From sequence record KY979108: a stretch of 40,469 bases of DNA. The stretch is one strand, 5' to 3'. The DNA is from Escherichia phage ECP1. The translations under genes and the position numbers were made by a program. The notes beneath the pieces were generated by a model, which did no database searches, was not told where the DNA came from, and worked only from the letters and a program-made list of their open reading frames with translations. Shown in pieces: positions 20,204-32,661 of this stretch. Positions within the stretch are counted from its first letter, which is position 1, and each line of letters starts with the position of its first letter.

Positions 20204-20490
20204 AGCAGCCGCTGACCTTCTTCCTGATGTCGCTGGCGCTCCGGTTGGGACGTACTCTCCACGAACTGCGCCAGAACATGACCGCCAGCGAGCTCAAAAT
20301 GTGGATCGAGTTCGACCGCATCAGTCCGATTGGTGACTGGCGCGCCGATGCTCAGGCGGCGCAGATCTCCGTTGCAATGCTGAACTCTCAGGGCGGGAAA
20401 TTCACCATTCCTGACGTGATGCTGAAATGGGGTGAGCAGGAAGAAGGCGCTGAAGTCTCTGAACTTGAAGAATGGATGTCCAGTCTTTGA
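20191..20490 (+). CDS. Tail assembly chaperone T segment, expressed as a G-T fusion by -1 ribosomal frameshift
   Basis: The -1 frame from GGGAAAG is open through 20490 and runs into the 20227 ORF. Confidence 0.75.
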   Translation, partial: GKAVKQPLTFFLMSLALRLGRTLHELRQNMTASELKMWIEFDRISPIGDWRADAQAAQISVAMLNSQGGKFTIPDVMLKWGEQEEGAEVSELEEWMSSL

Positions 20491-20524
20491 TGCCCGCGGC
20501 TGCGGGCTTTTTTATGGGTGAAAT

Positions 20525-23500
20525 ATGGCAACGCTGCGCGAGCTAATCATCAAAATTTCGGCGAACTCTTCTTCTTTTCAGTCAGAGATCGCCAGAGCGT
20601 CCCGCATGGGAACCGATTACTACCGCACTATGGAACAGGGCGGGAAAAAAGCTGCAGCGGCCACGCGTGAAACTCAGCGGTCTTTGGCTGACCTGAATTC
20701 TCAGCTTGCAACCGTGCGATCCTCTGCTGCCGGGCTTGCCGGTGCGTGGGCTGGTGCATTTGCCACGCATCAGCTGATTCAGTTTGCCGACACGTGGAAC
20801 CAGTTGAATGGGCGTCTTCGCCTTGCGTCCTCTTCCAGTGAGGATTACGTGCAATCCCAGCGCGTGCTGATGGAGATTAGCCAGCGCACCGGAACATCCC
20901 TCGAGGCAAACAGCAACCTGTACAGCCGAATTGCGCAGTCCCTGCGTGATGCCGGTTACGCTTCTGCTGACGTCGCAAAAGTTACGGAAACCGTAGCAAC
21001 CTCACTGAAGCTGTCTGGCGCCAGTACCGAAGAGGCGAGTTCTGTTATCACCCAGCTTAGCCAGGCACTTGGCTCAGGCGTTTTGCGAGGCGAAGAATTT
21101 AACTCCATCATGGAGAACGGTGGACGCCTGGCGAAACTGCTGGCTGATGGGCTGGGTACCACTGTTGGTGGCCTGCGAAATATGGCCAACAACGGCGAGC
21201 TGACGACCAACAAGATCGTCCCGCTGCTGACCAACGTTGAGATCCTCCGTAAAGAATTCGACACCCTTCCTGCATCCATCAGCGGATCTGCACAGAAAGT
21301 GCAAAACGCCTTCCTTGCATGGGTTGGCGGGGCGAACGATGCGGTCGGCGCATCATCAACGCTTTCCGGCGTGCTGGATGGTCTGGCGAATAACATCGAT
21401 GATGTGGCGAACACCGCAGGCATTCTGGTTGGTGTTGGCCTCGCTCGTTATTTTGGCAACATGGTCGGCAGCGTTGCTCAGTCAACCCGGGCAGTCCTCG
21501 CTAATACGGCCGCCGAGGTCGCGCTGGCGCAGGCTCAGGTTCGCGGAGCTCAGGTTAGCGTTGCTGCTGGTCGCCAGGCTGTTTACCGCGCTCAACAGGC
21601 GCGCGCAGCGGCGACGAGTATTGAGGCTCAGATTGTCGCTGAGCGTAATCTTGCTGCTGCTCAGGCATCACTGAATACGGCGCTTGCTGGCAGGACTTCG
21701 GCCGTTAATAACCTCACCAATACAGCCTCGGTGATGTCCCGCCTGGGTAGTGGCGTTCTTGGCATTCTCGGTGGCTGGCCTGGAGTGATTATCGGTGCCG
21801 GCGCTGCGATGTATGGCCTTTATCAGCATACCCAGCAGGTGCACCGTGAGGCGGTAGGTTTTGCCAACAACCTTGACGAGATCAACACCAAGCTCCAGCA
21901 GATGTCGGTGCTTGGCCTGCGTTCGACCGCGGCTGATGCCCGTACATCTTTACAGGCGCAAAAACAGGACCTGGCCGACCTCGACTCTCAGATTGCGAAG
22001 GTGAAAGACAGTCTTAAGGCGGTTGATCAAATCCAGCAGGACTACAACCGCCATCCGACGCTGACCCTGATCAACACCTTCATGGACCAGGCCGACATCA
22101 CGGCCAAAAACATCGAGCTTACCGATAAGCTGAACCAGCTTGAGTACCAGCGCGAACAGGCAGCCTCAAAAGTCGAGCAAACGCAGAAGCTGGTTAATCA
22201 GGCCAGTGATCTGGCCACACAAAAGGCTATCGAACAGGCTGGCGCTGTCTCAATCCTGAAAGGTGCGTATGACCTGCTTAACCGCTCGATGTCAGCGACC
22301 GCTGGCGCCAAGCCGCCGCAATATGCCGGGCCCGTCGTCTCACTGGCGAATGCAACGCCTCAACAGCAAACTGCACTGGAGCGCTCGCGCCGCGATAATG
22401 AGCTAGCCAGCTTAAGCGGATTAGAGAAACTCCATCAGCAGCACGTCTACGAAGCAGAAGACCTGCAGCTGACGGGGGCGCTTTACACCCAGTACATCTA
22501 CAACAAGGATCAGGCAGCCAAAAAGGATGCAGCAGCTGCAGAGGCAAAAAAAACCTCTACCGCCGCCTCGAAAGCGCAGAGTAAAGCCGAGCGCGAAGCG
22601 GCCAGCACCGCCGAACAGTATTCCCGGAAAATGGCCGATCTGAGCGTGGCTATCGATGTGCAACGCGTCCGGGCCACGGAAGGAGAAAAAGCCTCTGAGC
22701 TTTACGCGGCGTCGCACCAGGCAGGCACTAAATGGACCGACGAGCAGCGCAGAGCAATCCAGGCATCATCAACAGAGCTGGCAAAATGGACGCAAAAAGC
22801 CGACGAGAACGTGCGCAAGCAGCGCGAACAGGCTGATGCCCTGAAGGATTTAACTGAAGCGGCCCGAAAGTTCAGGGATGAGGCGACGCTGACAACCGAA
22901 ACCGCAGGCATGAGTGATCGTCAGCGCAGCCGGTTCGATGAGACGCAACAGATCGACCGTGTTTTTGCTAAAACGGACGGCGGCACCGAGGCCATCGCAC
23001 AGCGCGCCGCAGCCCTCGATGCTCTGGAGGAGAAATACAAGGCTATTGCAGCAGCTGAAGCGGATTGGATGTTCGGTGTATCACGCGGCTATGCCAACTG
23101 GTTTGATGAAATCAGTGATGTATCCGGAACGGTTTCTGACGGGGTGAAAACCACACTCGACAGCGCGTTTGGTAACGTCACCTCAATGCTCGAAGGCAAT
23201 AAAGTTAGCTGGAAATCGTGGGGTATTTCTGTCCTGCAGATTATCGAAAAAGTGGCTCTGCAGATGGCGGTGGTTAGCGCGATGGGTGGGGCCTCTTCCG
23301 GTTCTGGCATCTTTGGCTCACTCATCGGCAGTGTAGGCAGCTTCTTCGGGGGCGGGGCGGGAGCATCAGCCAGCACCGGTACGGCGGTTTCCAGTTACGG
23401 ATCGAACTTCCAGTTTAACGCCAAAGGCGGCGTTTATGACTCCCCCTCTCTGAGCGCTTTCAGTAATGGGATCGTCAGAAACCCCACCATGTTCGCTTTC

Positions 23501-23806
23501 GCAAAAGGCGGGGCCGGAATCATGGGCGAGGCTGGGCCGGAGGCGATCATGCCGCTTACCCGCGCGCCGGATGGTTCTCTCGGCGTTCGTGCGGTCGGAG
23601 GTGGCGGCGGTCAGTCTGTATCTTCGGCGCCACAGGTTTATATCACCATCGATGGCAACGGCAACACTCAAACTCAGGCCTCACCAGGCCTTGAGCAATT
23701 TGGTGCCGAGGTCGGGGAATTTGTTGATCGACGTTATAAGCAGAATGTGATGCGTGACATTCGTCCCGGCGGCGACATCTGGAACGCAATGAAAGGAACC
23801 CGATAA
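20525..23806 (+). CDS. H: Tail tape measure protein
   Basis: 1093 aa, alanine/glutamine-rich coiled-coil protein downstream of the chaperone pair. Confidence 0.9.
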   Translation: MATLRELIIKISANSSSFQSEIARASRMGTDYYRTMEQGGKKAAAATRETQRSLADLNSQLATVRSSAAGLAGAWAGAFATHQLIQFADTWNQLNGRLRLASSSSEDYVQSQRVLMEISQRTGTSLEANSNLYSRIAQSLRDAGYASADVAKVTETVATSLKLSGASTEEASSVITQLSQALGSGVLRGEEFNSIMENGGRLAKLLADGLGTTVGGLRNMANNGELTTNKIVPLLTNVEILRKEFDTLPASISGSAQKVQNAFLAWVGGANDAVGASSTLSGVLDGLANNIDDVANTAGILVGVGLARYFGNMVGSVAQSTRAVLANTAAEVALAQAQVRGAQVSVAAGRQAVYRAQQARAAATSIEAQIVAERNLAAAQASLNTALAGRTSAVNNLTNTASVMSRLGSGVLGILGGWPGVIIGAGAAMYGLYQHTQQVHREAVGFANNLDEINTKLQQMSVLGLRSTAADARTSLQAQKQDLADLDSQIAKVKDSLKAVDQIQQDYNRHPTLTLINTFMDQADITAKNIELTDKLNQLEYQREQAASKVEQTQKLVNQASDLATQKAIEQAGAVSILKGAYDLLNRSMSATAGAKPPQYAGPVVSLANATPQQQTALERSRRDNELASLSGLEKLHQQHVYEAEDLQLTGALYTQYIYNKDQAAKKDAAAAEAKKTSTAASKAQSKAEREAASTAEQYSRKMADLSVAIDVQRVRATEGEKASELYAASHQAGTKWTDEQRRAIQASSTELAKWTQKADENVRKQREQADALKDLTEAARKFRDEATLTTETAGMSDRQRSRFDETQQIDRVFAKTDGGTEAIAQRAAALDALEEKYKAIAAAEADWMFGVSRGYANWFDEISDVSGTVSDGVKTTLDSAFGNVTSMLEGNKVSWKSWGISVLQIIEKVALQMAVVSAMGGASSGSGIFGSLIGSVGSFFGGGAGASASTGTAVSSYGSNFQFNAKGGVYDSPSLSAFSNGIVRNPTMFAFAKGGAGIMGEAGPEAIMPLTRAPDGSLGVRAVGGGGGQSVSSAPQVYITIDGNGNTQTQASPGLEQFGAEVGEFVDRRYKQNVMRDIRPGGDIWNAMKGTR

Positions 23807-24903: not shown

Positions 24904-25614
24904 ATGCGTCAGAAAACCATAGATGCGATTATGGCGCATGCTGCAGCTGAATATCCTCTTGAGTGTTGCGGCGTGGTGGCGCAGAAAAGCCGCGTTGAAC
25001 GTTATTTCCCGTGCCGGAATCTTGCCGCGGCGCCGGAGGACAATTTTGTCCTTTGCCCCGAAGACTACGCAGCTGCTGAGGACTGGGGAACGGTGATCGC
25101 CATCGTTCACAGTCACCCTGACGCCACAACGCAGCCGAGCGAACTGGATAAAGCGCAATGCGACGCAACGCTTTTACCCTGGCATATTGTGAGCTGGCCG
25201 GAGGGGGATTTACGCACCATCCAGCCGCGCGGAGAACTGCCACTGCTGGAGCGTCCGTTTGTGCTTGGACACTTCGACTGCTGGGGGCTGGTAATGAGCT
25301 ATTTCCGGCAAACGCATGGTATCGAGCTCCACGATTACCGGGTGGATTATCCCTGGTGGGAAAACGCCTATCCGGACAATTTTTATCAGGATTGCTGGTA
25401 TGAATGCGGATTCAGGGAGTTTGACGGCCCGCCTCAGGAAGGGGACCTCGTCATCATGCAGGTGCAGGCCGATAAGTGGAATCATGCCGGGATTTTACTG
25501 GAGGGTAACATGCTGCTGCACCACCTGTACGGACATCTGAGCCAGCGCGTGCCGTATGGTGGCTACTGGCAGGAAAGGACGATGAAGATTCTTAGACATC
25601 AGAATTTTATTTAA
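24904..25614 (+). CDS. K: Tail assembly protein K (MPN/JAB plus NlpC/P60 domains)
   Basis: HSHP metal-binding motif and Cys-His hydrolase region. Confidence 0.8.
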   Translation: MRQKTIDAIMAHAAAEYPLECCGVVAQKSRVERYFPCRNLAAAPEDNFVLCPEDYAAAEDWGTVIAIVHSHPDATTQPSELDKAQCDATLLPWHIVSWPEGDLRTIQPRGELPLLERPFVLGHFDCWGLVMSYFRQTHGIELHDYRVDYPWWENAYPDNFYQDCWYECGFREFDGPPQEGDLVIMQVQADKWNHAGILLEGNMLLHHLYGHLSQRVPYGGYWQERTMKILRHQNFI

Positions 25615-25661
25615 CAAACTGTCACTGATACTATCGTGTAGTACACAGCAAGGAGAACGAT

Positions 25662-25886
25662 ATGTATACAGTTGGGTTTGGTTGGATCTTCGTCGGTATT
25701 TTTATTGGGTTAATTCTCTGGTTTTTCATCAACCGCGCCAGCGTCAGAGCGAACAGGCAGGTTGAATTACTTGAGTCTATCGACCAGAAATTATCAAAAA
25801 TAGTAGATCCAAACTTCGAGGCAAATAACAAAGACCAGTCGAAAGAAAACTACCTTGAAGAAGCAAGGAAAAAAGCTGGGCTTTGA
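25662..25886 (+). CDS. Small single-pass membrane protein (74 aa) inserted between K and I
   Basis: Hydrophobic N-terminal helix then a charged tail; AT-rich compared with neighbours. Confidence 0.5.
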   Translation: MYTVGFGWIFVGIFIGLILWFFINRASVRANRQVELLESIDQKLSKIVDPNFEANNKDQSKENYLEEARKKAGL

Positions 25887-25935
25887 GAGCGTAAATTAAC
25901 AAACCACCTACGGGGGGTTTTTTTATGGGGGCAGC

Positions 25936-26544
25936 ATGCAAGAGGTAATGACAAGAATTGAGCTAAGTGGCGTGCTAGCTAAGACATATGGAAGGGTTCA
26001 TCACCGTCTGGTTCGCACTACTGCTGAAGCCATTAATGCACTCGCGAAAACCATCAATGGATTCGAGAAATTCTTAAACACAAGCAAGGCCCGAGGGCTG
26101 ACGTATGCCGTTTATAGAGATAAAAAGAATATTGGCGTTGATGATCTCGGCTTTCCCGTCACCGGCGAAGTGATCCGGATTGTCCCTGTAGTAATAGGGA
26201 GTAAAAAGGCTGGTCTTTTGCAGACGATCTTGGGGGCCGTGCTTATTACTGCTGCTGTGTTGACTGGCCCAGGCGGTATTGGCGCTGCTTTCGCTGCTGG
26301 TGGATTGACGGGGTTTGCTGCTGCCACTGGTGCCTCGTTGGTCCTCGGTGGGGTTATTCAGCTGCTTTCACCGCAGCCATCAGGCATAGCCAGCAAACAA
26401 AGCGCAGATAACCGTGCATCGTATGCATTCGGCGGTGTTACAAACACCGCGGCACAGGGGTACCCGGTGCCTCTGCTTTATGGTAAGCGTCGAATCGGCG
26501 GAGCGATTATTTCTGCAGGAATTTATGTCGAAGATCAGCAGTAG
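25936..26544 (+). CDS. I: Tail assembly protein I
   Basis: Resembles lambda I; hydrophobic glycine/alanine-rich central region. Confidence 0.8.
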   Translation: MQEVMTRIELSGVLAKTYGRVHHRLVRTTAEAINALAKTINGFEKFLNTSKARGLTYAVYRDKKNIGVDDLGFPVTGEVIRIVPVVIGSKKAGLLQTILGAVLITAAVLTGPGGIGAAFAAGGLTGFAAATGASLVLGGVIQLLSPQPSGIASKQSADNRASYAFGGVTNTAAQGYPVPLLYGKRRIGGAIISAGIYVEDQQ

Positions 26545-26597
26545 ATAACTAACCTTTTTACAAGCCACCTCCGGGTGGCTTTTTTTATGGACGCAAT

Positions 26598-29500
26598 ATG
26601 GCAACTGCAACCGCGATTAAAGGCCGCAAAGGCGGTAGTTCAAAGACACGCACTCCAACTGAACAGCCCGATGATCTGCAGTCAGTTGCGAAGGCGAAAA
26701 TTTTAATCGCCCTTGGCGAGGGCGAGTTCTCCGGGCAATTAACCGGCAAAGATATCTACCTGGACGGAACAGCGCTGGAGAATGCTGACGGCTCCCAAAA
26801 CTTCAGCGGGGTAACGTGGGAGTTTCGCGCGGGAACGCAGGCGCAAAAATATATTCAGGGTATTCCCGGTACCGAAAACGAGATCAGCGTAGGAACTGAG
26901 GTATCAAGTGCCACAGCCTGGACGCGCACGTTTACCAATACGCAGCTTTCAGCAGTTCGCCTGCGTCTTAAATGGCCCTCGCTTTTCAAACAGGAAGACG
27001 ACGGCGATCTGGTGGGTTACTCGGTCAATTATGCGATTGACCTGCAGACTGACGGCGGCACATGGCAGACGGTACTCAATACCAGCGTGACCGGTAAAAC
27101 GACCTCAGGTTATGAGCGCAGCCACCGTATCGATTTACCGCAGGCTGGCAGCACCTGGACAATACGTCTGCGTAAGATTACCTCTGACGCCAACAGCGCG
27201 AAGATCGGCGACACGATGATGCTGCAGAGCTTCACTGAGGTGATTGACGCCAAGTTACGATATCCAAACACAGCGTTACTCTACATCGAATTCGATTCCA
27301 GCCAGTTTAACGGCTCTATCCCTCAGATCTCCTGCGAGCCCCGCGGCCGCGTTATCCGCGTTCCAGATACCTACGACCCTGAAACCCGCACTTATAGCGG
27401 TACATGGACCGGTGCGTTTAAGTGGGCATGGACGGATAACCCTGCGTGGATTTTTTACGACCTGGTTGTTTCTGACCGGTTCGGCCTTGGGCACCGTTTG
27501 ACCGCTGCGAATATTGATAAATGGACGCTTTATCAGGTTGCTCAGTATTGTGATCAGATGGTACCAGACGGCAAAGGGGGCAACGGTACAGAACCACGCT
27601 ATACCTGCAACGTGTACATTCAGGACCGGAACGACGCCTACACAGTCCTGCGTGATTTTGCCGCTATCTTCCGTGGCATGACCTACTGGGGCGGGGATCA
27701 GATTGTGGCCCTGGCTGACATGCCGCGCGATGTTGATTACAGCTACACGCGCGCTAACGTTGTTGGCGGTCGCTTCACCTATTCGAGCAGCACCACGAAA
27801 AGCCGCTACACCACAGCACTGGTTTCATGGTCAGATCCGGGGAACGCTTATGCCGACGCGATGGAGCCGGTATTTGAGCAGGCGCTGGTGGCGCGATACG
27901 GCTTCAATCAGCTGGAAATGACAGCCATCGGCTGCACCAGGCAGTCAGAAGCGAACCGAAAGGGGCGCTGGGGTATTCTCACCAACAACAAGGATCGCGT
28001 TGTTTCGTTTGATGTCGGGCTGGACGGAAACATTCCGCAGCCTGGCTACATCATCGCCGTGGCAGACGAGCTGCTTTCCGGAAAGGTTATGGGCGGCCGC
28101 ATCAGCGCCGTTAACGGTCGCGTTATCAAACTTGACCGCGTAGCTGATGCAGCACCAGGTGATCGCCTTATTCTCAACCTTCCCTCCGGAGCGTCGCAGA
28201 GCAGGACCATTCAGGCCGTGAACGGGGAATCAGTCACAGTCACCACGGCATACAGTGAGACGCCACAGGCCGAAGCTGTTTGGGTGGTTGAATCTGACGA
28301 GCTCTACGCGCAGCAGTATCGAGTTGTCAGCGTTTCCGATAACAATGATGGCACTTTCTCGATTACCGGCGCATGGCACGACCCGGATAAATATGCCCGT
28401 ATCGATACCGGAGCCATCATTGACCAGCGGCCGGTGAGCGTGATTCCGCCGGGTAACCAGTCGCCGCCTGCGAACATCGTGATCAGCTCGTTTTCCGTGG
28501 TTCAGCAAAATATCAGCGTCGAAACAATGCGCGTGAGCTGGGACCAGGCGCAGAACGCTATCGCCTATGAAGCACAATGGCGCCGCAACGACGGGAACTG
28601 GGTTAACGTGCCGCGCACCTCCACCACGTCATTCGACGTCCCGGGGATTTATGCCGGGCGCTACCTGGTGCGGGTGCGCGCAATCAATGCCGCAGAAATT
28701 TCATCCGGATGGGGCTATTCAGAAGAGAAAACGCTGACGGGTAAAGTGGGCAATCCACCGAAGCCGGTTGGCTTTATCGCCTCTGAAAACGTGGTGTTCG
28801 GTATCGAGCTGAACTGGGGATTCCCGGCGAATACCGACGACACGCTGAAGACGGAAATTCAGTACAGCCTGACCGGTACTGAAGACGATGCCATGCTGCT
28901 GGCCGATGTGCCTTACCCGCAGCGCAAGTATCAGCAGATGGGCCTGAAGGCGGGGCAAATTTTCTGGTACCGGGCGCAGCTGGTGGACAGGACAGGCAAT
29001 GAGTCGGGTTATACCGACTGGGTACGTGGACAGGCCAGTATCGATGTGTCGGATATCACCGATGTTATCCTGGAGGACATTAAAGAATCGGACACGTTCA
29101 AGGAACTGATCGAAAGCGCAGTAGACAGCAACGAAAAAATTGCTGGTATGGCTGACGATATCAGACAGAACGCTGACGATCTGGAGCAACAGGCGCTGGC
29201 CATCAAGGAAAACGCCGATGGGCTCGCCCAGGCCGAGGTGAAGATTGACGAAATCTCTGTCTCGATGGATGGCATGACGGGAGGCGTTAAAAACTCCTCT
29301 ATCGCGGTTATTCAGAACAGCCTCGCGCAGGTCACCAGCCGTCGATCCCAGACAGCCACCAACGCCGGGAACAGCGCCAGCATCGACCGTATCGATACCA
29401 CCATTGCAGATACCAGCCAGGCGGTTGCCCGTGCGCTGGTTACGCTTGATGCTTCTGCCGGTGGTAATGTCTCAAACGCGACCGATCTCACCGAAACCCT

Positions 29501-30053
29501 TGCTGATTTCACGCAGGCCTCGGCCACGAAAATCAACTCCCTGACGGTTACGGTAAACGGCCAGACAGCGGCTATTAACCAGACCGCGCAGGCGGTGGCT
29601 GATGTGAACGGTAACCTCAGCGCGATGTATAACATCAAGGTTGGCGTTTCCAGCAACGGTCAGTATTACGCCGCGGGCATGGGGATTGGTGTTGAGAATA
29701 CGCCGTCCGGGATGCAGTCGCAGGTCATCTTCCTGGCTGACCGCTTCGCCGTCACCACGGCAGCAGGTAACAGCGTGGCTTTGCCGTTTGTGATCCAGAA
29801 TGGACAGACATTCATCCGGGACAGTTTCATCCAGGACGGCACTATCAGCAACGCAAAGATTGGTAATTTTATCCAGTCGAACAATTATGTTGCTGGTTCT
29901 GCTGGCTGGAAGCTTGATAAAGGGGGGACGTTTGAGAACTACGGTTCGACTGCTGGTGAGGGAGCCATGAAACTGACAAATCAGACGATCAGCGTCAAAG
30001 ATGGCAGTAATGTTCTTAGGGTGCAGGTTGGACGATTAACGGGAGTATTCTGA
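26598..30053 (+). CDS. J: Host specificity protein J (central tail fibre)
   Basis: 1151 aa in the J position, with fibronectin-like central region. Confidence 0.9.
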   Translation: MATATAIKGRKGGSSKTRTPTEQPDDLQSVAKAKILIALGEGEFSGQLTGKDIYLDGTALENADGSQNFSGVTWEFRAGTQAQKYIQGIPGTENEISVGTEVSSATAWTRTFTNTQLSAVRLRLKWPSLFKQEDDGDLVGYSVNYAIDLQTDGGTWQTVLNTSVTGKTTSGYERSHRIDLPQAGSTWTIRLRKITSDANSAKIGDTMMLQSFTEVIDAKLRYPNTALLYIEFDSSQFNGSIPQISCEPRGRVIRVPDTYDPETRTYSGTWTGAFKWAWTDNPAWIFYDLVVSDRFGLGHRLTAANIDKWTLYQVAQYCDQMVPDGKGGNGTEPRYTCNVYIQDRNDAYTVLRDFAAIFRGMTYWGGDQIVALADMPRDVDYSYTRANVVGGRFTYSSSTTKSRYTTALVSWSDPGNAYADAMEPVFEQALVARYGFNQLEMTAIGCTRQSEANRKGRWGILTNNKDRVVSFDVGLDGNIPQPGYIIAVADELLSGKVMGGRISAVNGRVIKLDRVADAAPGDRLILNLPSGASQSRTIQAVNGESVTVTTAYSETPQAEAVWVVESDELYAQQYRVVSVSDNNDGTFSITGAWHDPDKYARIDTGAIIDQRPVSVIPPGNQSPPANIVISSFSVVQQNISVETMRVSWDQAQNAIAYEAQWRRNDGNWVNVPRTSTTSFDVPGIYAGRYLVRVRAINAAEISSGWGYSEEKTLTGKVGNPPKPVGFIASENVVFGIELNWGFPANTDDTLKTEIQYSLTGTEDDAMLLADVPYPQRKYQQMGLKAGQIFWYRAQLVDRTGNESGYTDWVRGQASIDVSDITDVILEDIKESDTFKELIESAVDSNEKIAGMADDIRQNADDLEQQALAIKENADGLAQAEVKIDEISVSMDGMTGGVKNSSIAVIQNSLAQVTSRRSQTATNAGNSASIDRIDTTIADTSQAVARALVTLDASAGGNVSNATDLTETLADFTQASATKINSLTVTVNGQTAAINQTAQAVADVNGNLSAMYNIKVGVSSNGQYYAAGMGIGVENTPSGMQSQVIFLADRFAVTTAAGNSVALPFVIQNGQTFIRDSFIQDGTISNAKIGNFIQSNNYVAGSAGWKLDKGGTFENYGSTAGEGAMKLTNQTISVKDGSNVLRVQVGRLTGVF

Positions 30054-30054
30054 A

Positions 30055-30357
30055 ATGGCTTATGGAATACAGACCTGGGATGCTTCAGGAAAACCCAACA
30101 ACTATGGCATCAAACCCGTTTCCGTCGTTGGGCGAATACAGCTGGCTGCCGGGCAAACCTCCGGCAGCTGGTCTTTTACGGTGCCCTCAGGAATGAAAGT
30201 TGGTTTTGTTCTTTCACTTGATGAAGGAGGTAACAGCGTAGGGCGGCGCATTGTCGCGTCAGGGAGCACAATAACCGTAAGCGCTGCATCTTCTGTAGGC
30301 CTGGGAAATTATCCGGCCTCAAAATGTGAGGTGGTTGTTTTCATGGAGAAAGCATAA
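30055..30357 (+). CDS. Hypothetical protein downstream of J
   Basis: ORF coupled to the J stop. Confidence 0.45.
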   Translation: MAYGIQTWDASGKPNNYGIKPVSVVGRIQLAAGQTSGSWSFTVPSGMKVGFVLSLDEGGNSVGRRIVASGSTITVSAASSVGLGNYPASKCEVVVFMEKA

Positions 30358-30995
30358 TGGCCGAATTTGGCGCGATGATATTAATGGACAACGGGAACCC
30401 ATTTGTAACGCCCCAGTCAACGCCTTTTTGTCTTTACGGCAAGTACACTTTCAACTCCTCTGCTAATGGCAGTTCGCAGCAGGTTGCTCAGAATATTGCA
30501 TTAAATGCTGACTACCCTGTGATGGTATTTATCAGGACCACAAATACCGCCCAGCCCACGCCAGTAATATCTTACCGGAACGGCGGAAATATATATGTCG
30601 CGGGGGTTAATCCTTATAACCAGAGCTTCACGTTAACTGCATATATATTTGCCATATTTCCACAGACGTTACCGAAGTGGGGGATGGCAATCTGGGATTC
30701 GAGCGGGAAGCTGGTACTCACTAATGAGTCCCGCGTGCTGTCAGACTTGCAGACAATCGGAACGCCTGGAGCAAACGGCGGGATTAACATTGACCAGACG
30801 CTTGATGGTTCATGGGCAGTGGCTCCATCAAGGCTGGGGCAAGTGAACAGAAACGACGCTTACTCATCTTGTAGGTATTCAGGCACAAGTACAAGAATAA
30901 ACGCTGGTACAGCCGCAAATACTCCTGGGGGGGCTGGAGGGGTGATAAATAATGGAATTATCCTGACAGCAATTAAAACAGACGCCTATGATTGA
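30357..30995 (+). CDS. Hypothetical protein, possibly tail-fibre associated
   Basis: ORF coupled to the upstream gene. Confidence 0.45.
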   Translation: MAEFGAMILMDNGNPFVTPQSTPFCLYGKYTFNSSANGSSQQVAQNIALNADYPVMVFIRTTNTAQPTPVISYRNGGNIYVAGVNPYNQSFTLTAYIFAIFPQTLPKWGMAIWDSSGKLVLTNESRVLSDLQTIGTPGANGGINIDQTLDGSWAVAPSRLGQVNRNDAYSSCRYSGTSTRINAGTAANTPGGAGGVINNGIILTAIKTDAYD

Positions 30996-31073
30996 TCGCT
31001 TTGAGCGATCAATTATCCCAATTTATTTCATGCTGCTATTGTTGAGTTAATATTGACCTCTGGATTATTAATA

Positions 31074-31307
31074 ATGAAAAAGCTGATTATCTGCCTGGCT
31101 GTAGCGTTATCTCTGACCGGTTGCGCTGGTGTACTTGAGAAACAGAAACCGATTTGCAGCGGCACGGCATATATGGGTGGCCATGAGAATACCGTTATGA
31201 TTTACGCCGTTCGAAAGCAAAACAACCAGACGCAATACCAGGCCGGATATCCCTTTAACTGGCGCTGGGTAAGTGCGAACACATTCACAAGCACGACATG
31301 TAAATAA
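31074..31307 (+). CDS. Small lipoprotein (candidate Cor-like superinfection exclusion protein)
   Basis: Signal peptide with lipobox LTGC (MKKLIICLAVALSLTGCAG); located downstream of J where cor-type genes sit. Confidence 0.5.
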   Translation: MKKLIICLAVALSLTGCAGVLEKQKPICSGTAYMGGHENTVMIYAVRKQNNQTQYQAGYPFNWRWVSANTFTSTTCK

Positions 31308-31365: not shown

Positions 31366-32661
31366 ATGCTTTATAACACTGGAACCATCGCCATTAACGG
31401 AAACAGCGCCACCGGCACGGGCACGAACTGGACGGCACCCGCCAGCCAGGTCCGCGCTGGCCAGACGATTATCGTGATGTCTAACCCGGTGCAGCTGTTT
31501 CAGATTTCATCCGTGAACAGCGCCACGTCAATGACGGTTACTCCAGCTGCTTCCCCGGCGCTGAGCGGCCAGAAGTACGGCATTCTTGTTACTGATAGTC
31601 TCTCGGTCGACGGCCTGGCGCAGAGCATATCTCAGCTCATTAACGAGTACGACGAGAATATCGGCGCGTGGGAGACGTTCGCCACCACCTCCGCAAACCA
31701 GACTATCACCGTTACTATCAATGGGGCCTCCGTGAATATTCCTGGTATTGGCGCACTTGCCAGAAAGGGGGCGAATAGCGATATCACGGAGCTGAAAGGG
31801 CTCACTACCGCGCTTTCTATTGCACAGGGTGGCACCGGGGCAACGAAGGCAGAAGACGCTCGCACAAACCTCGGTTTGGGAAACGTAGCCACTCTTAATA
31901 CTGGCGAGTCTCGTGAAAACGTAGTTACGGTAGGTTCTTCTGGTATTGGAGGCAACAGTATCGGAACAGGGTCTGAAAACATCAATACGTTTGCCGGGAA
32001 AACATGTTTCTGGACTGGGCGAGGTAGCGGACCCATTACCAGTGTTGTTTTTGGTTTTACAGTAACCCACTCCACACAGTCATCCGCTTATAACACACAG
32101 GTTGCATTCAGAGGCGGGCGCTCTTATCTTCGCGCACTGGAAGGTGGAACCTACACAAGCTGGTATGAAAATTACTCAACAGCCAACACCACTAAAGCCA
32201 GTGATGGAACTCTTAAAGCGGCATCGCCGGTGGCACGTATCGTTAAGTCTCAGGAAGAGAGTCAGCGTACTGACGTAGCCGATGATGGTTTCTCCTGGTG
32301 CGGCTGTGGAACGGCGAACGCTGAGGCGGAGGGAATAACCCTTTCCCGCCTCGAGGTGGGTGTTTACTTGCTGGCCGGTTCGGCAGGACTTGCGTCAGAG
32401 GGATGGCAACTGCTGCCGCCAATGGACCCTGGCGGAATGGGAGAGCTTGGCGTTGTCGAAGCAGAACAGACCGAAAGCGGCGAGCTGACAATCCGTCTTT
32501 TCAAGCGAAAATATATCCTGAGCGATGAAGGTGAGGTCATCAAAACCAAAGGTGAACCGATTGACGTCCCGGCGAACAGCTGGATCGATGTTCGTCTGGA
32601 TATGCCAGAAAACAGTGTCTGGAATCAGCGCCAGAAAGAGGCGATTGAACCTGCTTCATAA
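31366..32661 (+). CDS. Side tail fibre protein
   Basis: Glycine/serine/threonine-rich repetitive protein with conserved tail-fibre-like segment; start after hairpin and RBS GGAGAA. Confidence 0.75.
   Translation: MLYNTGTIAINGNSATGTGTNWTAPASQVRAGQTIIVMSNPVQLFQISSVNSATSMTVTPAASPALSGQKYGILVTDSLSVDGLAQSISQLINEYDENIGAWETFATTSANQTITVTINGASVNIPGIGALARKGANSDITELKGLTTALSIAQGGTGATKAEDARTNLGLGNVATLNTGESRENVVTVGSSGIGGNSIGTGSENINTFAGKTCFWTGRGSGPITSVVFGFTVTHSTQSSAYNTQVAFRGGRSYLRALEGGTYTSWYENYSTANTTKASDGTLKAASPVARIVKSQEESQRTDVADDGFSWCGCGTANAEAEGITLSRLEVGVYLLAGSAGLASEGWQLLPPMDPGGMGELGVVEAEQTESGELTIRLFKRKYILSDEGEVIKTKGEPIDVPANSWIDVRLDMPENSVWNQRQKEAIEPAS

What the first reader, a model, noticed from the sequence alone, without database searches (positions are those of the whole stretch)
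25662..25886. Small membrane protein inserted between tail genes K and I
In lambda, K and I are adjacent. Here a 74-aa ORF with one N-terminal transmembrane helix and a charged tail sits between them, in AT-richer sequence. An insertion inside the conserved tail operon suggests a moron, possibly a superinfection-exclusion or membrane-acting defence factor.
Basis: partly seen in the sequence, partly recalled or inferred. Interest (0 to 1): 0.5.

Follow-up and report, generated by a model that had tools for sequence, protein, structure and literature searches.

The report
Known YebO-like moron between tail genes
The small membrane-protein gene between tail genes K and I is the long-catalogued "gene 20" moron of HK022/HK97-type phages. 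It belongs to the same small-protein family as HK97 gp15, a proven superinfection-exclusion protein, so it is probably, though not demonstrably, another phage-entry blocker.

Summary
ORF 25662-25886 (+) encodes 74 aa with a strong Shine-Dalgarno site, one N-terminal TM helix and a charged tail. It sits in a 321-bp AT-rich insert (GC 0.40 vs 0.53) between K and I.

It is not new. The protein is 100% identical to HK022 gp20, annotated "moron gene product" in GenBank AF069308, and occurs in about a dozen HK/mEp phages. HK97 carries it with an amber codon at position 33, so it is not an essential virion part.

It passes Pfam YebO (PF13974, 47.7 bits). It shares phrog_5031 with HK97 gp15, the characterised exclusion moron (43% identity over 44 aa), and a Klebsiella phage protein bridges the two.

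Across 62 viral contigs the gene always lies co-oriented in the siphophage tail operon:
- 27 between T and H
- 26 between K and I
- 6 between H and M
- 3 in a different tail module

It nearly always has an intrinsic terminator. gp20-type copies usually carry a conserved extended -10 motif 25-33 nt upstream of the ATG. dN/dS is 0.06-0.2.

Best reading: a prophage-expressed, N-out/C-in inner-membrane protein that blocks genome entry of superinfecting siphophages. The function is inferred, not shown. Interest is low to moderate.

The parts
24904..25614 (+). Tail tip gene K (Prok-JAB + NlpC/P60). Left flank of the insertion.
   Evidence: Homology to N15 K runs to the end of the gene.
25615..25935 (+). 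The whole 321-bp K|I interval. The inserted AT-rich moron cassette (promoter-like region, ORF, terminator) runs from 25615 to about 25926. The last ~10 nt are the I ribosome-binding region, shared with N15.
   Evidence: The interval is absent from the N15 K-I junction. GC is 0.40. It is present at 98.8-99.7% identity in only 7 of 5426 complete E. coli genomes, annotated 'YebO family protein'.
25626..25634 (+). Extended -10-like promoter element TGATACTAT (-10 hexamer TACTAT), 27 nt upstream of the ATG. There is no good -35 (TTTATT at 17-nt spacing).
   Evidence: A TGnTAnnnT motif sits 25-33 nt upstream of the ATG in 13 of 17 diverged gp20-type lineages across three slots. Only 40 matches occur on both strands of the whole window. 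The stricter sigma-70 scan found no promoter here. Function is inferred.
25650..25655 (+). Shine-Dalgarno sequence AAGGAG, 6 nt before the start codon.
   Evidence: GGAG is conserved across homologues.
25662..25886 (+). 74-aa YebO-like small membrane protein (HK022 gp20 type). It has a TM helix at about residues 5-23, a conserved juxtamembrane motif NRASVRANRQVELLESI, and a conserved C-terminal YLEEARKKAGL.
25901..25924 (+). Intrinsic terminator AAACCACC-TACG-GGgGGTTT followed by a T7 run. It is weakened here by a T->G change in the 3' arm.
   Evidence: The equivalent site is annotated as a rho-independent terminator in HK542, HK446 and HK97. The hairpin is -7.4 kcal/mol here against -12.2 in HK542. 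The fold is not better than shuffles.
25936..26544 (+). Tail assembly gene I. Right flank of the insertion.

Best explanation
The element is a self-contained moron cassette: a weak extended -10 promoter, a Shine-Dalgarno site, a 74-aa ORF and an intrinsic terminator, inserted between tail genes K and I of an HK97/HK022-like lambdoid phage. It is the known HK022 'gene 20' moron.

Its product is a phage-adapted copy of the enterobacterial small inner-membrane protein YebO and a paralogue of HK97 gp15.

Most likely mechanism (inferred):
1. In the lysogen the cassette is transcribed from its own promoter while the late operon is silent, and transcription stops at its own terminator.
2. The protein inserts into the inner membrane with a 4-residue periplasmic N-terminus and a roughly 50-residue helical cytoplasmic tail.
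3. Like gp15, it interferes with the inner-membrane step of genome injection by superinfecting siphophages (the tape-measure or tail-tip conduit). It does not touch the outer-membrane receptor.

During lytic growth, Q-antiterminated late transcription would be expected to read through the cassette, so the protein would also be made late.

Shown: the cassette anatomy, family membership, conservation and dispensability. Inferred: topology, prophage expression and the exclusion activity.
For: Identity: 100% identical to HK022 gp20 and to the copies in HK542, HK75, HK446, HK544, HK106, HK633, mEp234, mEp235, mEpX1 and mEp506.

Family: Pfam YebO 47.7 bits against a cut-off of 27. phrog_5031 at 6.9e-41. 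gp15 hits the same Pfam family and PHROG.

Homology to gp15:
- gp20 vs gp15: 43% over 44 aa, E 5e-9.
- A Klebsiella phage protein sitting in the gp15 slot is 47% identical to gp20 over the full length (7e-22) and 49% to gp15 (8e-18).

[quoted passage not shown] Cassette architecture is conserved across three insertion slots:
- Strong terminators (-11 to -14 kcal/mol) follow nearly every copy.
- The extended -10 motif is at a fixed distance in 13 of 17 lineages (nominal P about 1e-19).
- All 62 IMG/VR loci are co-oriented in tail operons.

Other support: purifying selection, dN/dS 0.06-0.21. The positive-inside rule gives N-out/C-in. The gene is dispensable for virion production: amber in HK97 and absent from lambda and N15.
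Against: - No experiment on gp20 was found in the held literature.
- Family membership alone does not imply exclusion. Overexpressing or deleting host YebO had no effect on HK97 (PMC3594210).
- The authors attributed gp15's new function to its diverged C-terminus. The gp20 C-terminus (DPNFE...YLEEARKKAGL) differs from that of gp15.
- Eight phages carry both genes: HK97 (gene 20 amber), HK75, HK446, HK544, HK106, HK633, mEp234 and mEpX1. gp20 is therefore not a simple substitute for gp15, and its target is unknown.
- From my own knowledge, not tested here: HK/mEp phages were sorted into immunity groups by plating on each other's lysogens. That argues gp20 does not broadly exclude HK97-like phages.
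- PADLOC has no matching model.
- The sigma-70 consensus scan finds no promoter.
- The terminator in this window is mutated and weak.
Confidence: 0.5

Rival explanations
1. Lysogenic-conversion factor unrelated to phage defence. As a mimic or antagonist of host YebO, the protein would bind YebO's unknown membrane partner and alter envelope physiology or stress and antibiotic tolerance of the lysogen.
For: The TM and juxtamembrane core is 73% identical over 30 aa to E. coli YebO. It matches the NRASVRAN core of Serratia, Pectobacterium and Brenneria YebO exactly. A CRISPRi screen found yebO knockdown beneficial under several antibiotics, so YebO affects fitness (PMC12063145). yebO lies next to mgrB, which encodes another small membrane regulator.
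Against: The only characterised phage member, gp15, acts on phage entry (PMC3594210). The phage subfamily has lost the conserved host C-terminal (F/I)IPER motif and gained its own YLEEARKKAGL tail. The strict confinement to tail operons is not explained by a general host-physiology role.
Confidence: 0.2
2. Late-function accessory protein. It would be expressed mainly from the Q-antiterminated late transcript and act during lytic growth. Possible roles are stopping secondary injections into the already infected cell, stopping progeny from wasting genomes on it, or modulating membrane events around tape-measure or tail handling or lysis timing.
For: The gene is always co-oriented with, and embedded in, the tail operon at T|H, H|M or K|I and in a different tail module. 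Late transcription must traverse it. The window's own terminator is weakened without loss of the ORF. No canonical promoter was found.
Against: A terminator immediately downstream in nearly every lineage only makes sense for transcripts not modified by Q, i.e. prophage-state expression. A conserved promoter-like motif lies upstream. gp15 is reported to be expressed from the prophage (PMC3594210). HK97 grows normally with the gene knocked out by an amber codon.
Confidence: 0.15
3. Functionless hitch-hiker, or a decaying gene that persists only through linkage to the tail genes.
For: HK97 carries an amber allele. The window has a damaged terminator. The cassette is rare, in 7 of 5426 complete E. 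coli genomes.
Against: dN/dS is 0.06-0.21 with saturated synonymous sites. Invariant motifs hold across Escherichia, Enterobacter, Serratia, Pantoea and Klebsiella elements, and the gene has been placed independently in several slots.
Confidence: 0.05

Closest known systems
HK022 gp20 (GenBank AF069308, HK022_20, 'moron gene product'; Juhala et al. 2000)
   Same: 100% identical protein in the same K|I position with the same flanking sequence. This is the same gene.
   Different: Nothing of substance. The window has one T->G change in the downstream terminator stem. The function of HK022 gp20 has never been reported in the literature I could search.
HK97 gp15 superinfection-exclusion moron (Cumby et al. 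2012; reviewed in PMC3594210)
   Same: Same Pfam family (PF13974) and same PHROG (5031). Single N-terminal TM helix, the R-x-S-x-RAN-x-Q-V-E-x-L juxtamembrane motif, and a small tail-operon cassette with its own terminator. 43% identity over 44 aa.
   Different: Different slot (T|H vs K|I). Different C-terminal half (KKQDAQIDLLIQVAHQRKDSL vs DQKLSKIVDPNFE...YLEEARKKAGL). 62 vs 74 aa. The upstream region lacks the TGnTAnnnT motif. The two co-occur in eight phages, so they are paralogues with presumably different targets.
Enterobacterial YebO (E. coli b1825, 95 aa, function unknown)
   Same: TM helix plus GLILWFFINRAS...Q(I/V)ELLE core, 73% identical over 30 aa. Predicted inner-membrane location.
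   Different: Chromosomal, in the cspC-yobF-yebO-mgrB-kdgR neighbourhood. Longer N-terminus, a QQKRQNALL middle and a conserved C-terminal (F/I)IPER or RLVAER motif, all absent here. Reported to have no effect on HK97 (PMC3594210).
Other membrane superinfection-exclusion proteins that block DNA injection (P22 SieA, T4 Imm, Tuc2009 Sie2009, TP-J34 Ltp)
   Same: Proposed mode of action: a prophage- or phage-encoded membrane protein stops genome entry after adsorption. For Ltp the target is the tape measure protein (PMC10883804).
   Different: No sequence relationship was detected. Sizes, topologies and gene locations differ.
Cor (FhuA-inactivating exclusion lipoprotein of HK022, N15 and phi80)
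   Same: Another small exclusion moron in the tail region of the same phages. The window has its own copy at 31053-31307.
   Different: An outer-membrane lipoprotein that inactivates the receptor (PMC3594210). Unrelated in sequence and predicted to act at a different step.

Membership tests
Moron (as defined by Juhala et al. 2000; restated in PMC3594210) | Lies between two genes that are adjacent in related phages | tested here: met
   K and I overlap in lambda. K runs straight into I in N15. HK225, mEp237 and phiES15 match over spans about 320 bp shorter.
Moron (as defined by Juhala et al. 2000; restated in PMC3594210) | Base composition differs from the surrounding genes | tested here: met
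   GC 0.40 against 0.53 and 0.52 in the flanks. The same holds for homologues in other slots (GC 0.33-0.41).
Moron (as defined by Juhala et al. 2000; restated in PMC3594210) | Own factor-independent terminator downstream | tested here: met
   A hairpin plus T7 run lies at 25901-25924. The same site is annotated as a terminator in HK542, HK446 and HK97. It is weakened here (-7.4 vs -12.2 kcal/mol) and not better than shuffles. It is strong in nearly all homologues.
Moron (as defined by Juhala et al. 2000; restated in PMC3594210) | Own sigma-70 promoter upstream | tested here: inconclusive
   The consensus scan finds none. A TGnTAnnnT extended -10-like motif is conserved 25-33 nt upstream of the ATG in 13 of 17 lineages. 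The motif was defined post hoc, and no transcription data exist.
Moron (as defined by Juhala et al. 2000; restated in PMC3594210) | Expressed from the repressed prophage | not testable with these tools
   Needs lysogen RNA-seq or 5' RACE.
YebO-like protein family (Pfam PF13974; phrog_5031) | Scores above the curated family threshold | tested here: met
   47.7 bits against gathering 27. phrog_5031 at 6.9e-41. RefSeq labels the identical gene 'YebO family protein'.
YebO-like protein family (Pfam PF13974; phrog_5031) | Single N-terminal TM helix followed by the conserved (N)R-x-S-x-R-x-N-x-Q-(V/I)-E-x-L segment | tested here: met
Chromosomal YebO orthologues | cspC/mgrB/kdgR neighbourhood and a C-terminal (F/I)IPER or RLVAER motif | tested here: not met
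   Here the gene lies in a tail operon and ends in YLEEARKKAGL. Of 80 representative-genome loci, 75 are host-type proteins (48 with recognisable cspC/mgrB/kdgR/rlmA neighbours) and 5 lie in prophage tail operons.
HK97 gp15-type superinfection-exclusion proteins | Detectable homology to gp15 | tested here: met
   43% over 44 aa, E 5e-9. Same PHROG. A bridging Klebsiella phage protein links the two.
HK97 gp15-type superinfection-exclusion proteins | gp15-like C-terminal segment, proposed to carry the acquired exclusion function | tested here: not met
   The C-terminal halves do not align. gp20-type copies have their own conserved tail.
HK97 gp15-type superinfection-exclusion proteins | Inner-membrane localisation | not testable with these tools
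   Only predicted, from hydropathy, the positive-inside rule and the helix model.
HK97 gp15-type superinfection-exclusion proteins | Blocks entry of superinfecting phage DNA independently of repressor immunity and without blocking adsorption | not testable with these tools
   Needs EOP, adsorption and DNA-entry assays.
Conserved virion or tail assembly component | Present and intact in all phages sharing the tail module | tested here: not met
   Amber at codon 33 in HK97. Absent in lambda, N15 and HK225. Replaced by other cargo in HK140, mEpX2, LMessi and Fraca.

The most novel reading that the evidence does not exclude
The tail-operon YebO-like genes would be a diversifying family of entry-control proteins whose location is functional, not accidental. 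Each paralogue (gp15-type at T|H; gp20-type at K|I, H|M or T|H) would be matched to a different component of the injection machinery. gp20-type proteins could target the tail-tip (M-L-K-I-J) or inner-membrane conduit step rather than the tape-measure or tube step. Prophages carrying both would then have two-layer exclusion that recombines together with the tail module it recognises.
Probability: 0.15. Interest if true: 0.5.

Novelty: already known. Interest (0 to 1): 0.27.

Why it matters
If gp20 is a second exclusion protein of the gp15/YebO family, the small and genetically tractable HK/mEp phage set offers natural combinations: gp15 only in function (HK97, where gene 20 is amber), gp20 only (HK022, HK542, mEp235, mEp506 and this phage), and both. 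These could be used to map how single-pass membrane proteins stop siphophage genome injection, a step that is still mechanistically obscure.

It might also hint at the function of YebO, a conserved enterobacterial small protein that is still uncharacterised.

In practical terms, phrog_5031 is labelled 'unknown function' and PADLOC has no model that this protein matches. Such genes therefore go unrecognised as candidate defence factors. As an annotation result, the finding itself is ordinary: a moron catalogued in 2000.

Tried and rejected
- NCBIfam, PADLOC and PDB sequence searches gave nothing meaningful.
- Rfam and tRNA scans of the window were empty.
- The sigma-70 and terminator consensus scan found no promoter. 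Its only terminator-like hit was an antisense one inside the ORF, which I disregard.
- AlphaFold returned two helices (pLDDT 70.8). I did not run a fold search because matches to single helices are meaningless.
- I tested whether the cassette is tied to one tape-measure type and rejected it. The window's TMP has TMP_3 + HK97_TLTM + Tape_meas_lam_C. The HK022 TMP has only Tape_meas_lam_C yet carries the identical gp20. A third tail module with a TMP_3-only TMP carries a long-form homologue.
- I considered a structural or assembly role and rejected it (HK97 amber allele; absence from relatives).
- I considered the antisense 66-aa ORF 25631-25831. I set it aside because all homology and selection signals are on the + strand.
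- The primary papers (Juhala 2000; Cumby 2012) are not held in the library. What they say about gene 20 and about 'phage homologues' of gp15 could not be checked directly.
- Literature searches for gp20, YebO in prophages, and the mEp/HK phages gave no functional data.

Full report
**1. What is in the sequence**

AAGGAG lies 6 nt before the start.

The upstream gene, 24904-25614, carries Prok-JAB and NlpC/P60 domains and hits phrog_30. It is lambda K. The downstream gene, 25936-26544, hits Lambda_tail_I and phrog_32. It is lambda I. M and L precede K, and the 1093-aa tape measure gene lies at 20525-23806.

GC drops to about 0.40 across the 321-bp K|I interval, from 0.52-0.53 on both sides.

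The protein has one strongly hydrophobic stretch at residues 5-23. No basic residue precedes it, three arginines follow it, and the 51-residue tail is mixed-charge. AlphaFold models one long helix (3-48), a break at Asp-Pro-Asn, and a second helix (52-71) at moderate confidence. By the positive-inside rule the topology should be N-out/C-in. This is an inference.

**2. What the window is**

The window is a complete HK97/HK022-like lambdoid phage genome (Hendrixvirinae) written in a permuted order. The structural half is 99.6% identical to HK542. Overall the best match is mEp506. Integrase, an SSB, a Rad52-like recombinase, a cI-type repressor and cII follow the tail genes.

**3. The gene is already catalogued**

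- The protein is 100% identical to HK022 gp20, whose GenBank entry (AF069308) reads 'moron gene product'. It is also identical to genes in HK542, HK75, HK446, HK544, HK106, HK633, mEp234, mEp235, mEpX1 and mEp506.
- HK97 has the same cassette, but codon 33 is an amber (CAG to TAG). That is why HK97 numbering jumps from gp19 to gp21 with no CDS between them.
- RefSeq labels the identical gene 'YebO family protein' in the 7 of 5426 complete E. coli genomes that carry it.

**4. The K|I junction in relatives**

| State of the junction | Phages |
|---|---|
| K and I overlap, or K runs straight into I | lambda, N15 |
| Match span about 320 bp shorter than the window (empty junction inferred) | HK225, mEp237, phiES15 |
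| About 113-aa putative lipoprotein gene (annotated so in HK140 and Fostie) | HK140, mEpX2, Fostie |
| Two unrelated small genes | LMessi, Fraca |
| Ail/Lom-type outer-membrane protein on the opposite strand | a Providencia phage |

The junction is therefore a cargo hot spot, and this gene is one of several alternative cargoes.

Alignment with N15 places the left boundary of the insert at the K stop codon. The right boundary falls just after the terminator T-run, immediately before the I ribosome-binding site.

**5. Family**

- The protein scores 47.7 bits on Pfam PF13974 (YebO-like; gathering score 27) and 6.9e-41 on phrog_5031.
- HK97 gp15 is a moron between the tail chaperone and tape-measure genes. 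It was shown experimentally to be a prophage-expressed superinfection-exclusion protein and described as a YebO-family member (PMC3594210, PMC10883804). It hits the same Pfam family and the same PHROG.
- Directly compared, the two are 43% identical over 44 residues.
- A 77-aa Klebsiella prophage protein sits in the gp15 slot and bridges them. It is 47% identical to gp20 over the full length, including the C-terminal YLEEARKKAGL, and 49% identical to gp15 over 51 residues, including gp15's KKQ-AQIDLLI-AH segment.
- The core is also 73% identical over 30 residues to E. coli YebO. It matches the NRASVRAN core of Serratia, Pectobacterium and Brenneria YebO exactly.
- Host YebO proteins are distinguished by their cspC/mgrB/kdgR neighbourhood and a C-terminal (F/I)IPER motif, which the phage proteins lack.

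**6. Distribution and cassette anatomy**

A scan of IMG/VR returned 62 loci. In every one the gene is co-oriented with, and embedded in, a siphophage tail operon:

| Slot | Loci |
|---|---|
| T\|H | 27 |
| K\|I | 26 |
| H\|M | 6 |
| Different tail module (after the TMP and two small genes, before a DUF6950 gene; 154-aa long form) | 3 |

gp20-type proteins, recognised by the YLEEARKKAGL tail, occur in all three main slots. Contig look-ups for Serratia, Pantoea and metagenomic homologues gave the same picture.

Nearly every copy is followed within about 45 nt by a strong hairpin plus U-run (-11 to -14 kcal/mol).

In gp20-type copies, a TGnTAnnnT extended -10-like motif lies 25-33 nt upstream of the ATG in 13 of 17 diverged upstream lineages. 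The nominal probability is about 1e-19, against a per-locus null of about 0.02. The motif was defined after seeing seven loci. Of the 11 lineages in that set that were not among those seven (one of them closely related to the window), 7 still carry it. The motif occurs only 40 times on both strands of the whole window.

The stricter sigma-70 scan finds no promoter in the window. A functional promoter is therefore plausible but unproven.

dN/dS against a 91%-identical homologue is 0.06. Against 50%-identical ones it is about 0.2, with synonymous sites saturated in between.

**7. Mechanism**

The anatomy is that of a classical moron. A terminator placed inside a late operon is irrelevant to Q-modified polymerase and only makes sense for a transcript made in the lysogen.

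Together with the homology to gp15, the most likely function is a prophage-expressed inner-membrane protein that prevents genome entry of superinfecting siphophages after adsorption.

Several points keep my confidence at about 0.5:
- Host YebO itself has no effect on HK97 (PMC3594210).
- gp15's new function was attributed to its diverged C-terminus, and gp20's C-terminus is different again.
- gp15 and gp20 coexist in eight phages, so gp20 must do something gp15 does not.
- From my own knowledge, lysogens of gp20-bearing phages such as HK022 are routinely used as plating hosts for heteroimmune relatives. This argues against broad exclusion of HK97-like phages.

The rivals are:
- a YebO-mimic that alters host envelope physiology (0.2);
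- a mainly late-expressed accessory function (0.15);
- a functionless passenger (0.05), which the selection signal contradicts.

**8. Comparison and novelty**

The element is HK022 gene 20, catalogued as a moron in 2000. Its family assignment is already in Pfam, PHROGs and RefSeq. A characterised family member (gp15) already provides the exclusion hypothesis.

Three things appear not to be spelled out in the literature I could read:
- gp20 and gp15 are paralogues in one PHROG, which is still labelled 'unknown function'.
- They co-reside in many phages.
- The cassette has colonised at least three different junctions of the tail operon while keeping its promoter-like motif and terminator.

[quoted passage not shown] The data here contradict that statement. 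The original paper, which I could not access, reportedly mentions phage homologues.

I rate the finding 'already known', with low-to-moderate interest.

Noticed in passing
window 25912-25917 (terminator 3' arm): The terminator after the ORF reads GGGGGG here, where HK542, HK75, HK446, HK022-type and other copies read GGGTGG. The single T->G change puts an A.G mismatch in the stem and drops the hairpin from -12.2 to -7.4 kcal/mol. It could be a real mutation that increases read-through into I, or a sequencing error in a G-run.
   Followed up: partly
L002 2163-2261 (HK97, AF069529 13560-13658): HK97's copy of the gene has an amber codon at position 33 (CAG->TAG), leaving a 32-aa TM-only peptide. 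This explains the missing 'gp20' CDS in the HK97 record. HK97 therefore relies on gp15 alone.
   Followed up: yes
window 31053-31307 (+): A Cor lipoprotein homologue, 92% identical to mEp506 Cor, lies between the genes downstream of J and the side tail fibre gene. It is a second, unrelated exclusion-type moron in the same tail region.
   Followed up: partly
window 20490-20525 and 26544-26598: The T|H junction (34 nt) is empty here, although it holds the gp15 moron in HK97. The I|J junction (53 nt) is also empty, although it holds the gp22/gp23 morons in HK97 and HK022 and two small genes in mEp506. This phage carries only the K|I cargo.
   Followed up: yes
L163 500-1156 (Providencia phage PSTRCR_117lys); L008 888-1229 (HK140); L007 947-1636 (LMessi): In relatives the K|I junction carries quite different cargo: an Ail/Lom-family outer-membrane protein on the opposite strand, a putative lipoprotein, or two small hypothetical genes. 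The junction is a general moron hot spot.
   Followed up: partly
L053 4962-5426, L054, L055: A 154-aa long form combines the YebO-like N-terminus with a 90-residue extra C-terminal region. It sits in a different siphophage tail module, after a TMP_3-type tape measure and two small genes and before a DUF6950 gene.
   Followed up: partly
L086-L161 (representative genomes): Chromosomal YebO proteins of Serratia, Pectobacterium, Brenneria, Dickeya, Sodalis and Pantoea carry the exact NRASVRAN core of the phage protein, whereas E. coli YebO has NRASSRTN. The phage gene may therefore have been captured from a non-Escherichia enterobacterium.
   Followed up: no
phrog_5031 / PADLOC: PHROGs places HK97 gp15 (a characterised exclusion protein) and the gp20-type proteins in one family, still labelled 'unknown function'. 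PADLOC returned no match for the gp20 protein.
   Followed up: yes
L080 (mEp506, PV340542) 27096-30375 and 31473-32182: In the 2025 mEp506 record the tape-measure gene and gene K are each split into two or three ORFs, whereas they are intact in the window. These are probably frameshift sequencing errors or real pseudogenisation in that record.
   Followed up: no
window 1-40469: The window has no tRNA genes and no Rfam family at gathering threshold. Its closest relative, mEp506, has tRNA-Asn and tRNA-Thr downstream of Q.
   Followed up: partly
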